A stretch of 64,000 bases of DNA from Candidatus Cloacimonadales bacterium. GTDB lineage: Bacteria; Cloacimonadota; Cloacimonadia; Cloacimonadales; JAFGVF01. A program made the position numbers. Position 1 is the stretch's first letter. Every line of letters begins with the position of its first letter. Of the stretch, positions 36,001 through 39,000 are shown piece after piece. The stretch is from assembly GCA_963678315.1 (NCBI GenBank), contig OY782781.1:800001-864000 (forward strand), read 5' to 3'.

Positions 36001-39000
36001 CTATAGAGGACATGACTACGGCTGTAAAAGATTATAAGGGTCAAGTAGAGTTAGAGGCTTCAGGGAATGTAACAATGAATTCAATAAGAGCAATAGCTGA
36101 AACTGGAGTAGATTTTATTTCTAGTGGAGCATTGACTCATTCATATAAATCGTTAGATATTAGCTTATTGTTTAGGGAGTATTAAGAAGATGATTAATAA
36201 AGTTAAAAGTTTAATTGAAATGCAGAGTTTTGATGACAAGATTGCGGATAAAGAAAAGCTAAAAAAAGAATTACCAAAAAGATTACAAGGACTTCTAGAT
36301 TCTGTTAATGAGGCAAAATTAGCAGTAGAAGAAGTTGAAGAAGAGAAGAAACAAGTAGTACTTAATCAAAAGGATCGTGAGCTTGAAATAAAGCAAAATA
36401 AAGAGAAGATGCTTAAGTATGAAGAACAACTTACTTCAATTAAAACCAATAAAGAGTATAAAGCTTTAAACAGTGAAATTGCATCATTAAATACACAGAA
36501 TTCTGAGCATGAATCAGAAATTCTATCATTAATGGAACAAGAAAATCAGTGTAAAGCTATGATATTAGATAGAACAAAAGTTCTTGATGAGAAAAAAGCT
36601 GAACTAAAAGCTCAAGAGGATGATTTAAAAGAAGAAATAGCTGGTTTAGATGGCGAAATCGATGCTTTAAAACTACAAAGAAATGAAATTGCTAAAACTT
36701 TACCAAATAATGTAGTAAAACAATATAAGAGATTAATTATTAACAGAAACAGAAAAGCTGTTGCATTTGAATCTGAAGGTGCATGTTCAGCGTGTGGCTT
36801 CAAAGTTAGACCTCAAGTTATCGTGGAATTAGATAAGCTCAATAAACTAAATTTCTGTGATAACTGTGGAAGATTTCTTGTTAAAAAACCTCTTCACTAA
36901 GGTATTGAAATAAATTCTTGATACAAGCAATAAACTAATTTAATTGCTATAAGAAGATAAAATGTCTGCCTGTTAATTCAGGAGGAAAGTCCGGACACCA
37001 TAGGGTAGGATGCTTCTTAACGAGAAGTCTTGGTGACAAGAAGATAGCTCCACAGAAACAAACCGCTTGAATACCGAAAGGTTGAACAAGTAAGGGTGAA
37101 AAGGTAGTGTAAGAGACTACCAGCTACTTTGGTGACAAGGTAGGCTAGGAATGCCTCATCTGGTGCAATGCCAAATAGGAGAGCTAGGAGTGACCCGCTC
37201 CGTTAACTCTCGGGTAGGCAGCTTAAGTCGGCTTTTATAGGTATTATTACGTGGCAACACTCGACTTAGATGAATAGACATTATGCTACTTATTAGGTAG
37301 TAGACAGAATTCGGCTTAATATCTTCTTATAGCGAATTTGCGTATAATTAAAACTAAAGAACACTAACAATAAGCAAATTAATTTTTTAAAAGACAAGTA
37401 AACAGATCAATTAGTAGGTTAATTAATGGATAATATATTTTCAGGTTTTCTAATTAAGAGAAAACCTATTTCGAAGATTGTCACAGTAGATGATATTAAT
37501 AACAGAAATCCGATAACAATTTCTAACAACATGATTAAGAAGTATAAGCTTGAACATGGATTGAGGATTACTGTTACGTTCAAAAATAACAAGGGCAAGA
37601 AAGTTGTGGAGTCTATAGTCTCAATTTGTGGACATGAGCCAGAGCATTATTTGGAAAGACGTCAGTTAAATGATTTAACTGTAATCAATCCAGAGACTAA
37701 GTTTGAATTCAACAAGAGTGAAAAGACATCACTGCGCATAATCGATAGATTTGCACCAATAGGAAAAGGTTCAAGAAGTTTAGTTGTGGCTCCACCCAGA
37801 GCAGGTAAAACAACTTTATTAAAAGACTTAACTAAAGAGATTACTTCTACACATCCTGAAATTCTAACCATAGCTTTGTTAGTTGATGAAAGACCTGAAG
37901 AAATTACTGATTTCAGACGTGATACTGATGCTGTAGTCTTAGCAAGTAGCAATGATCAGAATATTGGAGCACATGTTTTTATAACATCCTTGGCCATGAG
38001 TATTGCTAAGAATGAGCTTGAGTGTGGGAATGATGTTGTATTCTTGGTGGATAGCCTTACTCGGATTGGACGTGTCTATAACCTTAACCATAAAGGGAAA
38101 GGAAAGGTTATGAGTGGAGGAATCTCAGCAGGATCTTTAGAGATTCCGAGAAGATTCTTTGGCTTGGCAAGAAATGTTGAGAATGGTGGTTCTTTAACCA
38201 TTATAGCAACTATCCTTGTTGATACAGGTTCAAGAATGGACCAATTAATCTTCGAAGAATTCAAAGGAACAGGCAACTGCGACATTATTCTTGATAGAGA
38301 GATTGCTGAAAATAGGGTTTATCCTGCTATCGATATTCTTAAAAGTGGAACAAGAAAAGATGAACTTTTCTATGATTTCGCTGAATTTGAGGAGATAAAC
38401 GACCAACGTAGACAACTCTTGCGTTTAGATAAAATTACTGCAATAAAGAAAGCTATAGAAATGTATGGAGATGAATAGATATGAGTAATAATTATACTAA
38501 AGACTTCATTGTAACTTGGGATGAGTTTCATCGTGATGCCAAGGCATTAGCCTGGAAACTTCTTAACATTAAAGAGTTTAAAGGGGTAGTATGTATTACC
38601 AGAGGTGGGATGACTGCTTCCCAAATTATTGCTAGAGAACTTGAAATTAGGATGATAGAGACCTTTTGTATATCTACTTATGATGATCAAACTATTGGAG
38701 AACCTCAAATACTTAGAAAGCCGGAAGGTGATGGCCAAGGTTTGTTGGTGATTGATGATTTAGTGGATACAGGTACTACCATAAAACTAGTGAAAGAATA
38801 TTTGCCTAAAGCTTATATTGCAACTGTTTATGCTAAGCCAGAAGGCAAAAGATTAGTTGATACATTTATTACTGAGGTAAGCCAAGATACATGGATTAGA
38901 CTTCCTTGGGATACTGAATTAAACTATTCAACACCACTGATTCATAGAAAGAAATAAGGTTTATGGACAAGCATCTTCTTAATGCTTATAAAAGAATTCT

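What a model noticed while it worked through the whole genome (the two positions that open the first line are those of the whole stretch)
37426..38478. A second, compact Rho paralogue without the N-terminal helix bundle
Besides the canonical Rho (g01832, 419 aa) the genome keeps a 350-aa paralogue (g00636). It has the complete RecA-type motor with Walker A/B, Q-loop and R-loop (KSGTR) but starts directly with a short divergent OB-like beta domain: the Rho_N helix bundle is missing and Pfam no longer recognises the Rho RNA-binding domain. The same ~350-360-aa architecture is kept in scattered Cloacimonadota lineages at 42-73% identity, so it is a maintained gene, not a truncation; it probably is a Rho-like RNA translocase with altered loading specificity.
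Evidence so far: pfam.tsv: g00636 only ATP-synt_ab (103-307); g01832 Rho_N+Rho_RNA_bind+ATP-synt_ab. NCBIfam NF006886 Rho 3.8e-109 with model cover 0.78. Pairwise alignment: N-terminal ~32 residues of g01832 unmatched, the GFLRF segment absent, motor well aligned. search_genomes: a match much closer to g00636 than canonical Rho is (E 6e-88 to 4e-173 versus about 1e-75) in 8 of 60 other phylum genomes (3 families), each also with the canonical gene. Nine orthologues aligned, 350-361 aa, 65% mean column identity. AlphaFold2 model: short strands plus one helix, OB-like, no helical bundle. A 2025 review of Rho (PMC12360218) uses 'paralog' only for NusG/RfaH.
(Added by a program. Inside this text positions count along the whole contig: contig position 800,001 is position 1 of the stretch shown here. 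"Call 12" and the like, gene names such as g00115 and contig names such as C1 are that model's own, and its searches are not shown. The text may have been shortened before it was handed on; [...] marks where a part breaks off. The agent that wrote the report below was given it as the finding of a first reader that could run no searches.)

Follow-up and report, generated by a model that had tools for sequence, protein, structure and literature searches.

The report
Accessory short Rho lacking RNA-loading site
Beside its normal Rho transcription terminator this bacterium keeps a shorter, well-conserved second Rho with an intact motor but without the usual RNA-recognition pocket; extra short Rho genes are already known in other bacteria, so this is a new variant, not a new kind.

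Summary
Window 37426-38478 (+) encodes a 350-aa Rho homologue, and a canonical 419-aa Rho lies elsewhere in the genome. The motor and central-channel residues are intact. The N-terminal helix bundle is absent and cannot be encoded upstream. The N-terminus is a complete five-stranded OB fold, but the rut-binding residues are replaced or deleted.

The gene is under strong purifying selection. It is not a recent duplicate of the phylum's own rho (AU p 2e-65).

It is not special to Cloacimonadota. It belongs to a well-supported clan of ~350-375-aa Rho proteins (100/99 support). Clan members occur in 39 of 232 Cloacimonadota, 5 of 151 Planctomycetota and 3 of 301 Acidobacteriota genomes, nearly always beside a full-length Rho.

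The novelty claim fails. Second, shorter Rho copies without the N-terminal domain ('Group B', 'Type 4') and the hetero-hexamer idea are already published (PMC11347177).

What is new is modest: the phylum, the clan, and the complete loss of the primary RNA-binding residues.

Best reading: an accessory Rho-type ring translocase that loads without canonical rut recognition. Function and expression remain untested.

The parts
37426..38478 (+). Coding sequence of the short Rho paralogue (350 aa plus stop)
   Evidence: ORF. In-frame TAA two codons upstream. NF006886 362 bits. Foldseek TM 0.90-0.93 to E. coli Rho over about 352 columns.
37426..37650 (+). N-terminal OB (cold-shock-like) domain, residues 1-75. 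Strands 4-10, 16-19, 30-32; helix 34-39; strands 47-55, 58-67. No helix bundle precedes it.
   Evidence: AF2 model, block pLDDT 84-97 in this part. Pfam Rho_RNA_bind only E 0.11. 13 K/R against 7 D/E.
37489..37512 (+). DDINNRNP loop between beta2 and beta3. It is DDINNRNP in 15 of the 16 f1-clade N-termini printed, with one D-to-E change in L011, and has no counterpart motif in canonical Rho.
   Evidence: N-termini printed; coordinates.
37621..37632 (+). SICG motif at the end of beta5. The Cys is a clan signature: invariant in all 27 rows of alignment A2.
37792..37812 (+). Walker A / P-loop PPRAGKT (residues 123-129; K128 and T129 correspond to E. coli K184 and T185)
   Evidence: K and T kept in 127 of 127 short-clan rows.
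37885..37902 (+). DERPEE with the catalytic Glu and Arg (E155, R156 correspond to E. coli E211, R212)
   Evidence: kept in 127 of 127.
38047..38064 (+). Walker B region VDSLTR (D209, R213 correspond to E. coli D265, R269)
   Evidence: kept in 127 of 127.
38086..38124 (+). Q-loop equivalent (residues 221-233; K227, S230, G231 correspond to E. coli K283, T286, G287)
38221..38235 (+). R-loop equivalent DTGSR (residues 266-270; T267, R270 correspond to E. coli T323, K326)
   Evidence: The genome's canonical Rho also has R at this place.
38344..38358 (+). SGTRK with the arginine-finger equivalent R310 (E. coli R366).
   Evidence: R kept in 127 of 127.

Best explanation
The gene encodes a functional accessory member of the Rho family: a ring-forming, RNA-dependent ATPase and 5'-3' translocase. 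Its RecA-type motor, central-channel (secondary) RNA-binding loops and inter-subunit arginine finger are intact. Its N-terminal loading module has been rebuilt.

The basic helix bundle is gone. The OB fold is kept, but the pocket that binds pyrimidine-rich rut RNA (RNP1, RNP2, RNP3) is erased. It is replaced by a differently conserved, net-basic surface with a near-invariant DDINNRNP loop.

The protein belongs to an old, multi-phylum clan of ~350-375-aa Rho proteins that sit beside a full-length Rho. This is one lineage of what the literature calls Group B / Type 4 Rho.

Shown here: sequence, fold, conservation, phylogeny, co-occurrence and purifying selection.

Inferred:
- It assembles into a Rho-like ring.
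- It engages RNA through the central channel.
- It reaches its targets without canonical rut recognition, through another RNA feature or a protein adaptor (NusG or RNA polymerase, 'stand-by'-like).
- It therefore terminates or remodels a subset of transcripts that the housekeeping Rho handles poorly.
For: Identity and fold:
- NF006886 scores 362 bits. The best PDB sequence hits are all Rho (E 2e-78 to 1e-70).
- The AF2 model has pLDDT 93.2 and pTM 0.91. It superposes on E. coli Rho over its whole length (TMq 0.90-0.93, rmsd 2.1-3.4 A).

Motor: the equivalents of K184, T185, E211, R212, D265, R269, G287, T323 and R366 are kept in 127 of 127 short-clan rows of alignment A3.

Loading site, all:
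- The E108-R109-Y110 equivalent is gapped in 127 of 127 short rows and kept in 6 of 6 canonical Cloacimonadota rows.
- In the window's own clade, F64 is K in 8 of 8, R66 is V in 8 of 8, D78 is P in 8 of 8, and Y80 is T in 7 of 8.

Maintenance:
- dN/dS is 0.020-0.095 in the 21 of 28 pairs that could be computed.
- Identity to the sister genus is 72-74% for the short gene (7 genomes) and 86-87% for canonical Rho (5 genomes tested).
- GC is 35.4% against 34.3% for the window.

Clan:
- All 47 short rows fall on one side of a branch at 100/99, and the 18 Cloacimonadota short rows at 96/88.
- The AU test rejects joining them with the phylum's canonical Rho (delta lnL 154.7, p 2e-65).

Co-occurrence with a full Rho:
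- 38 of 39 Cloacimonadota genomes; the exception is 74% complete.
- 5 of 5 Planctomycetota.
- 3 of 3 Acidobacteriota, one of them with the long copy in three frame pieces.

Precedent: a rut-defective E. coli Rho (Y80C) still supports H-NS-linked silencing, which the review attributes to NusG-mediated 'stand-by' termination (passage in PMC12360218).
Against: - There are no expression or activity data. The reads laid gave no test.
- No conserved neighbour gene points to a pathway.
- Loss of every canonical primary-site residue could also mean that the subunit cannot load on RNA alone and works only inside mixed rings.
- The short gene decays in some lineages: 6 in-frame stops in G212 and a frame break in G136. 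It is missing from 0 of 98 genomes of family f3. It is therefore dispensable.
- The placement of the three-residue gap depends on the alignment. HMMER's pairwise alignment instead puts K58, K59 and V60 opposite E108, R109 and Y110. Either way there is no acidic residue or aromatic residue there.
- The functional roles of the E. coli residues are recalled from the literature, not derived from a call.
Confidence: 0.6

Rival explanations
1. It does not form its own ring. It co-assembles with the canonical Rho into mixed hexamers. Each short subunit would remove one helix bundle and one primary RNA site from the ring, tuning down or re-targeting rut-dependent termination. In effect it would be a built-in modulator of the housekeeping Rho.
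For: - The short form almost always co-occurs with a full Rho.
- The inter-subunit arginine finger and the nucleotide-pocket residues are identical in kind to canonical Rho.
- The genome has no other source of a Rho_N helix bundle (1 match in the genome).
- The hetero-hexamer idea is already proposed for Group B Rho (PMC11347177, section 27 and supplement part 26).
Against: - The two paralogues are only about 45% identical and separated long ago. The short gene would have had to keep its interfaces matched to different host Rho proteins in several phyla.
- The N-terminal domain is itself strongly conserved with a new near-invariant loop. That fits a function of its own better than a mere loss.
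- No interface analysis or complex prediction was run.
Confidence: 0.25
2. The motor has been recruited to a job other than transcription termination. It would be a Rho-derived helicase acting on another RNA or RNP substrate (RNA decay, R-loop removal, ribosome or RNase P RNA handling), targeted by the rebuilt OB domain.
For: - The canonical rut pocket is erased, while the domain stays conserved and basic.
- In this genome the gene lies between the RNase P RNA gene and an RNase HII-family gene.
Against: - That neighbourhood is not conserved. RNase P RNA is beside the gene in 0 of 20 related loci.
- None of nadC, the CT398-like gene, the PRTase gene or the RNase H gene is found in 34 of 34 other loci.
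- No conserved neighbour turned up at all.
- The Q-loop, R-loop and all catalytic residues are of the Rho type.
Confidence: 0.1
3. It is a decaying or functionless duplicate that gene callers still annotate as Rho.
For: - Pfam no longer sees the RNA-binding domain.
- Moreira et al. class sequences in which only the ATPase domain is detected as 'not functional Rho factors' (supplement part 26).
- Broken copies exist in G212 and G136.
Against: - dN/dS is 0.02-0.095.
- Intact reading frames occur in 39 genomes of 4 families.
- Every catalytic residue is invariant in 127 of 127 rows.
- The fold is confident and complete.
- The N-terminal sequence is highly conserved within the clade.
Confidence: 0.03

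Closest known systems
'Group B' / 'Type 4' Rho: second, shorter Rho copies lacking the N-terminal domain (D'Heygere et al. 2013 as cited; Moreira et al. 2024, PMC11347177)
   Same: - No N-terminal helix bundle; the OB domain starts within the first residues.
- Rho ATPase domain with all catalytic residues.
- Sits beside a longer 'Group A' Rho.
- Attributed to ancient rather than recent duplication.
(for the paper; for this protein.)
   Different: - The published Type 4 set is mostly Actinomycetota (46 of 58) plus 5 PVC species. It is described as keeping the RNP residues. Here RNP3 is deleted across the clan, and RNP1 and RNP2 are replaced in the Cloacimonadota branch.
- 'Cloacimon' occurs 0 times in the main text and in the one supplementary file held.
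- The actinobacterial short copy tested (L146) groups with actinobacterial long Rho, not with this clan.
- I could not check whether the 5 published PVC Type 4 sequences belong to this clan.
Canonical Rho (E. coli type; NCBIfam NF006886 / TIGR00767; PDB 1PV4, 3ICE)
   Same: - Same fold for the OB and RecA domains (TMq 0.90-0.93).
- 36-40% identity in the Foldseek alignments and 42-47% to the phylum's own canonical Rho.
- All motor and secondary-site residues present.
- Passes the NF006886 cut-off.
   Different: - Lacks residues 1 to about 50 (helix bundle) and about the last 15.
- The primary-site residues are gone.
- Fails the TIGR00767 cut-off (348 against 509).
- Dispensable and patchily distributed.
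NCBIfam NF041509 'paralog_Rho2, transcription termination factor Rho, short form'
   Same: A curated model for a roughly 360-position short Rho paralogue. It shows that database curators already recognise short-form Rho paralogues.
   Different: - The window protein scores 319.6 bits against a cut-off of 628.
- The genome's own canonical Rho scores higher, at 416 bits.
- Streptomyces and Nonomuraea long Rho score 577-582 bits, and their short second copies 473-489 bits. The model therefore looks actinobacterial.
- None of 31 short-clan proteins reaches the cut-off; the highest is 378.5 bits.
E. coli Rho primary-site mutants such as Y80C (works-like comparison only)
   Same: A Rho ring with an intact motor but defective rut recognition. 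It still supports NusG-dependent silencing at H-NS-bound loci according to the review passage.
   Different: These are laboratory point mutants of the sole, essential Rho, not a natural second gene. They retain the helix bundle.

Membership tests
Rho (NCBIfam NF006886 equivalog) | Whole-protein score at or above the curated cut-off (315 bits) | tested here: met
   362.2 bits, profile 74-397 of 413; 360.6 bits in the genome scan.
Rho (TIGR00767 equivalog) | Whole-protein score at or above the curated cut-off (509.45 bits) | tested here: not met
   347.7 bits. All 31 short-clan proteins scanned also fail; the highest is 419.6 bits.
Canonical three-domain Rho | N-terminal helix bundle (Pfam Rho_N, PF07498) | tested here: not met
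   - No Rho_N hit.
- TAA two codons upstream of the start.
- The model starts with a beta strand at residue 4.
- The only Rho_N in the genome is in the 419-aa Rho.
Canonical three-domain Rho | OB-fold RNA-binding domain carrying the primary-site residues (RNP1 GFGF, R66, D78, Y80, E108-R109-Y110; roles recalled) | tested here: not met
   The fold is present but the residues are not. In the f1 clade, F64 is K, R66 is V and D78 is P in 8 of 8, Y80 is T in 7 of 8, and the 108-110 triplet is gapped. Pfam Rho_RNA_bind gives E 0.11.
Canonical three-domain Rho | RecA-type motor with Walker A/B, catalytic Glu, Arg valve, Q-loop, R-loop and Arg finger | tested here: met
   All are present in the window protein and in 127 of 127 short-clan rows for K184, T185, E211, R212, D265, R269, G287, T323 and R366.
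Canonical three-domain Rho | Hexameric ring; RNA-dependent ATPase and termination activity | not testable with these tools
   No biochemical data exist. No complex prediction was run, because a pass would rest on likeness to solved Rho rings.
Group B / Type 4 Rho (Moreira 2024; D'Heygere 2013) | Lacks the N-terminal domain, with the RNA-binding domain starting within the first 25 residues | tested here: inconclusive
   - By structure the OB starts at residue 4.
- By HMM, which was the paper's criterion, the domain is not detected with Pfam's model.
- The authors' own models were not available to me. Under their scheme it might fall into 'Rho-like ATPase domain only'.
Group B / Type 4 Rho (Moreira 2024; D'Heygere 2013) | Conserved Rho ATPase domain, and co-occurrence with a longer Group A Rho | tested here: met
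   38 of 39 Cloacimonadota carriers show two matches.
Group B / Type 4 Rho (Moreira 2024; D'Heygere 2013) | RNP residues of the RNA-binding domain retained (as described for Type 4 in supplement part 26) | tested here: not met
   against the description read.
NF041509 paralog_Rho2 (Rho, short form) | Score at or above the cut-off of 628 bits | tested here: not met
   319.6 bits and 318.9 bits.
Multi-phylum short-Rho clan defined here | Placement inside the supported clan; the three-residue RNP3 gap; the (S/T)(I/V)CG motif after beta5; length of about 350-375 aa | tested here: met
   - Branch support 100/99 and SH-like 99 in the 248-row FastTree.
- Gap present in 127 of 127 rows.
- SICG at residues 66-69.
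- 350 aa.

The most novel reading that the evidence does not exclude
The clan would be a natural 'rut-blind' Rho. It would be a second ring translocase whose rebuilt OB domain (in Cloacimonadota with the near-invariant DDINNRNP loop) docks on a protein partner or on a non-pyrimidine RNA signal. A cell would then run two termination systems with separate target sets. One is the housekeeping rut-dependent Rho. The other is an accessory Rho aimed at, for example, paused or foreign transcription units.
Probability: 0.3. Interest if true: 0.6.

Novelty: new variant of a known kind. Interest (0 to 1): 0.35.

Why it matters
Rho is the general transcription terminator of bacteria, and its target choice is thought to start at the primary RNA-binding site of the N-terminal domain.

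This is a naturally maintained Rho with a perfect motor but no helix bundle and no primary-site residues. It is kept beside a normal Rho in several phyla. It is a ready-made test case for two open questions: how much of Rho's work needs rut recognition ('catch-up' versus 'stand-by' loading), and whether mixed rings exist.

For annotation, these genes are all called 'transcription termination factor Rho'. A genome with two such calls should not be read as having redundant terminators.

The kind itself (Group B / Type 4) is already in print, so the gain is incremental.

Tried and rejected

2. Genome scan for named carriers:
- The alignment of 23 N-terminal stretches (A1) had no stretch conserved enough for the scan.
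All 80 loci returned fell outside the clan in the trees. They served only as outgroups.
- Carriers in other phyla were then found through genome handles.

3. Expression:
- Two oligo-dT RNA runs laid 0 reads, which is no test.
- Two RNA-labelled contig sets gave only 31-35-nt pieces with mismatches inside the rho gene. They gave exact 151-nt pieces only on the RNase P RNA.
- Nothing can be said about transcription of the short rho.

4. Operon partner:
- None of the window's neighbours is found beside the gene in 34 other loci.
- No conserved neighbour family appeared. The two large clusters are antisense ORFs inside rho itself.
- RNase P RNA is beside the gene in 0 of 20 loci.

5. A stand-alone helix-bundle protein that could act in trans: none. 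There is 1 Rho_N match, inside canonical Rho.

6. Membership in NF041509: rejected.

7. My first reading was that the protein begins at beta2, with F8 equivalent to F64. I dropped it after alignment A3 and the model showed a full beta1-beta5 OB.

8. Recent duplication inside the phylum: rejected by the AU test. The group was named after I had seen a tree.

9. Literature:
- Searches found no functional study of a Group B / Type 4 second Rho.
- D'Heygere 2013 is not held and is known to me only through Moreira 2024.
- Supplementary tables listing which species carry Type 4 were not read.

10. Complex prediction was not used. A pass for Rho with Rho would rest on likeness to solved rings and could not separate homo-rings from hetero-rings.

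11. The 50%-identity representative search added little. The clan collapses to a few representatives of 359-400 aa ahead of long Rho proteins.
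Full report
**What is there**

Window 37426..38478 (+) is an open reading frame of 350 codons. A TAA lies two codons upstream of its ATG, so no longer N-terminus can be encoded. The RNase P RNA gene ends 92 bases upstream, at 36950-37333 (250 bits).

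- Pfam recognises only the ATP-synt_ab nucleotide-binding domain (residues 103-307). Rho_RNA_bind is far below threshold (E 0.11) and Rho_N is not hit.
- NCBIfam's Rho model NF006886 is passed (362 bits against a cut-off of 315, profile positions 74-397 of 413). TIGR00767 is failed (348 against 509). The 'short form' paralogue model NF041509 is also failed (320 against 628).
- The same genome has a canonical 419-aa Rho with GYGFLRF and the only Rho_N domain of the genome.

**Anatomy**

An AlphaFold2 model built on a 133-row alignment is confident (pLDDT 93.2, pTM 0.91). It superposes on solved E. coli, Thermotoga and Mycobacterium Rho chains over its whole length (TMq 0.86-0.93, about 350 columns).

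The N-terminus is a complete OB fold: strands 4-10, 16-19 and 30-32, helix 34-39, then strands 47-55 and 58-67. 'GFLRF segment absent' is not right, because the strand is there but its residues differ.

I used HMMER's alignment to E. coli Rho and alignment A3. The functional roles of the E. coli residues are recalled from the structural literature, not taken from a call.

- Motor: the equivalents of K184, T185, E211, R212, D265, R269, G287, T323 and R366 are present in the window protein and in 127 of 127 short-clan rows.
The R-loop equivalent is DTGSR at 266-270.
- Primary RNA site, whole clan: the E108-R109-Y110 equivalent is a three-residue gap in 127 of 127 short rows. It is kept in 6 of 6 canonical Cloacimonadota rows.
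- Primary site, window's own clade: F64 is K (8 of 8), R66 is V (8 of 8), D78 is P (8 of 8), and Y80 is T (7 of 8).

HMMER's pairwise alignment places the gap differently, with K58, K59 and V60 opposite 108-110. No acidic or aromatic residue appears in either version.

The domain is nevertheless strongly conserved within the clade, with the consensus FtGfLIKRkPvSKIVtpDDINNRNPItiS. It is net basic, with 13 K/R against 7 D/E in residues 1-75.

**Relatives**

The closest database proteins are 71-83% identical and 348-352 aa long (P0002-P0009). One of them is named as coming from a Cloacimonetes bacterium.

The next 111 hits are 47-56% identical and 331-407 aa long. Where they carry a source name, it is KSB1, Eisenbacteria, Deltaproteobacteria, Aminicenantes or Planctomycetes.

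- None of the 120 listed proteins has Rho_N on record.
- By my hand count, 69 of the 120 have Rho_RNA_bind on record, but none of P0001-P0009 does.
- Of 31 scanned, all pass NF006886 (349-442 bits) with matches starting near profile position 50. None reaches the cut-offs of TIGR00767 or NF041509.

The genome's canonical Rho instead has 119 listed relatives that are 72-86% identical and 410-436 aa long. Every one that carries a source name is from Cloacimonadota.

**Phylogeny**

FastTree, 248 rows:
- The rows were 149 short forms, 19 canonical Cloacimonadota Rho, and 80 Rho from named genomes of many phyla.
- All 149 short rows fall on one side of a branch with SH-like support 99.

IQ-TREE, hand-picked subset of 93 rows (LG+C20+F+G4 by PMSF):
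- The 47 short rows fall on one side at ultrafast bootstrap 100 / SH-aLRT 99.
- The 18 Cloacimonadota short rows form a group at 96/88.
- The 7 canonical Cloacimonadota rows form a group at 100/100 elsewhere.
- The nearest rows outside the clan are helix-bundle-less or '2d-like' Rho of Planctomycetota, Verrucomicrobiota and Acidobacteriota. Support for that neighbourhood is weak (93/59 for one long branch, then 53/84).
- A Streptomyces short second copy (L146) groups with actinobacterial long Rho.

An AU test rejects a tree that holds the Cloacimonadota short and canonical Rho together (delta lnL 154.7, p 2e-65). I named that group after I had seen a tree.

One caveat applies. The metagenomic short rows were selected as best hits to the window protein. 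What the tree tests is that no long Rho falls among them.

**Distribution in Cloacimonadota (232 species genomes)**

A match clearly better than canonical Rho (E 5.8e-88 or lower, against 1.6e-80 or higher) occurs in 39 genomes:

| Group | Carriers |
|---|---|
| Own genome | 1 |
| Sister genus g2 (71-74% identity) | 7 of 7 |
| Genus g3 | 0 of 4 |
| Family f9 | 1 of 1 |
| Family f12 | 22 of 62 |
| Family f17 | 8 of 21 |
| Family f3 | 0 of 98 |
| The other 12 families | 0 of 38 |

- The weakest of the 39 (G163) has the clan's N-terminal features.
- 38 of the 39 carriers show a second, canonical match. The exception, G133, is 74% complete.
- Four further genomes hold broken or partial copies. G212 has six in-frame stops. 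G136 is split over two frames. G141 and G151 are cut by contig ends.

**Distribution in other phyla (profile of 27 clan members, A2)**

- 5 of 151 sampled Planctomycetota genomes hold a clan member, at 537-593 bits against 486 or less for every other match. Each of the five also has a long Rho.
- 3 of 301 sampled Acidobacteriota genomes hold one, at 584-600 bits. Each also has a full-length Rho, which in G432 lies in three frame pieces.

**Maintenance and context**

- Among the eight genes of the window's clade, dN/dS is 0.020-0.095 in the 21 of 28 pairs that could be computed. dS exceeds 1 in all of them, so the values are rough.
- Identity to the sister genus is 72-74% for the short protein (7 genomes) and 86-87% for canonical Rho (5 genomes tested). 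The short copy evolves about twice as fast.
- GC content matches the surroundings.
- The neighbours here are nadC, a CT398-like coiled-coil/zinc-ribbon gene, rnpB, the short rho, a phosphoribosyltransferase and an RNase HII-family gene. None of them is beside the gene in 34 other loci, and no conserved neighbour exists.
- Expression could not be tested.

**What is already known**

Moreira et al. 2024 (PMC11347177) is the main source. I read sections 9, 25, 26, 27, 31 and 32 and supplement part 26.

- They classify Rho into four types, of which 'Type 4' lacks the N-terminal domain.
- Type 4 comprises 58 sequences in 2730 genomes: 46 from Actinomycetota and 5 from the PVC group.
- They report 116 genomes with two or more rho genes.
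- They trace the idea of a shorter 'Group B' copy to D'Heygere et al. 2013, which is not held.
- They infer ancient duplications and propose hetero-hexamers.
- They note that Fusobacterium nucleatum has only a Type 4 Rho, which is essential.
- They describe Type 4 as keeping the RNP residues.
- They class sequences in which only the ATPase domain is detected as non-functional.
- 'Cloacimon' does not occur in the main text or in the one supplementary file held.

NCBIfam's NF041509 shows that curators also know a short-form paralogue. By its scores it is actinobacterial and not this clan.

It does cite both papers.

**How it most likely works**

Shown:
- A Rho-fold protein with every motor and central-channel residue.
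- No helix bundle and no canonical primary-site residues.
- Strong purifying selection.
- Ancient separate descent.
- Co-residence with a full Rho.

Inferred:
- It forms a Rho-like ring and translocates on RNA.
- It cannot select targets by the usual pyrimidine-rich rut contact.

It must therefore be brought to RNA in one of three ways: by another feature of its rebuilt basic OB surface, by a protein adaptor such as NusG or RNA polymerase, or by canonical subunits in mixed rings. The review's passage that rut-defective Y80C Rho still supports H-NS-linked silencing through NusG-mediated 'stand-by' termination makes adaptor-driven action plausible.

My estimates are:

| Reading | Confidence |
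|---|---|
| Autonomous accessory translocase | about 0.6 |
| Obligate mixed-ring modulator | 0.25 |
| A non-termination job | 0.1 |
| Functionless relic | 0.03 |

**Verdict**

It is not a new kind of system. It is a new, more derived variant of the published 'second Rho without N-terminal domain', found in a phylum that was not covered.

Interest is moderate to low (0.35).

Noticed in passing
window 36950-37333 (+) and 36190-36900 (+): A bacterial class A RNase P RNA gene (250 bits). Directly upstream lies a gene for a CT398-like coiled-coil plus C4 zinc-ribbon protein. Exact 151-nt pieces of the RNase P RNA occur in two RNA-labelled public runs (X10, X12).
   Followed up: partly
Planctomycetota genomes; G233, G234, G235: Two Rho-like matches per genome are common outside this clan. 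By my hand count, 81 of 151 sampled Planctomycetota genomes show 2 or more matches at E <= 1e-40, mostly two long forms. One Acidobacteriota, one Fibrobacteria and one Gemmatimonadaceae genome each have two long Rho genes. The tool warns that matches are not copy numbers.
   Followed up: no
G212:C41:20910-21701 (L157); G136:C455:230-1266: Decaying copies of the short rho in two Cloacimonadota genomes. One has six in-frame stops. The other is split over two frames. Either the gene is being lost in some lineages or these are assembly errors.
   Followed up: partly
G432:C8:153808-155050: In one Acidobacteriota genome that has an intact short-clan Rho, the full-length Rho matches in three pieces in different frames. 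This could be a frameshifted gene or a sequencing error. If real, the short form might be the only intact Rho there.
   Followed up: no
window 38963-39892 (+): An RNase HII-family protein with a weak N-terminal match to a TATA-binding-like domain (PF22721, E 2e-4), which is an RNase HIII-like architecture. It lies two genes downstream of the short rho, but this linkage is not conserved in relatives.
   Followed up: partly
window 33567-35186 (+): A 539-aa protein with a Lamin Tail Domain and a sub-threshold C-terminal FlgD Ig-like match. It is probably a secreted or surface protein.
   Followed up: no
runs X5-X8: Four runs filed under a different organism label (organism C) hold 84-87% of the sampled words of this stretch. 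A near-identical strain therefore turns up in data sets labelled as something else. RNA runs of that label laid no reads.
   Followed up: no
L040, L049, L056, L061, L108; G391: Other Rho proteins of 372-383 aa without a helix bundle occur in Verrucomicrobiota, Rhodothermales and Singulisphaera. They fall outside the clan. The Rhodothermales one is a second copy beside a gene with a 672-aa open frame. Loss of the helix bundle therefore seems to have happened more than once.
   Followed up: partly
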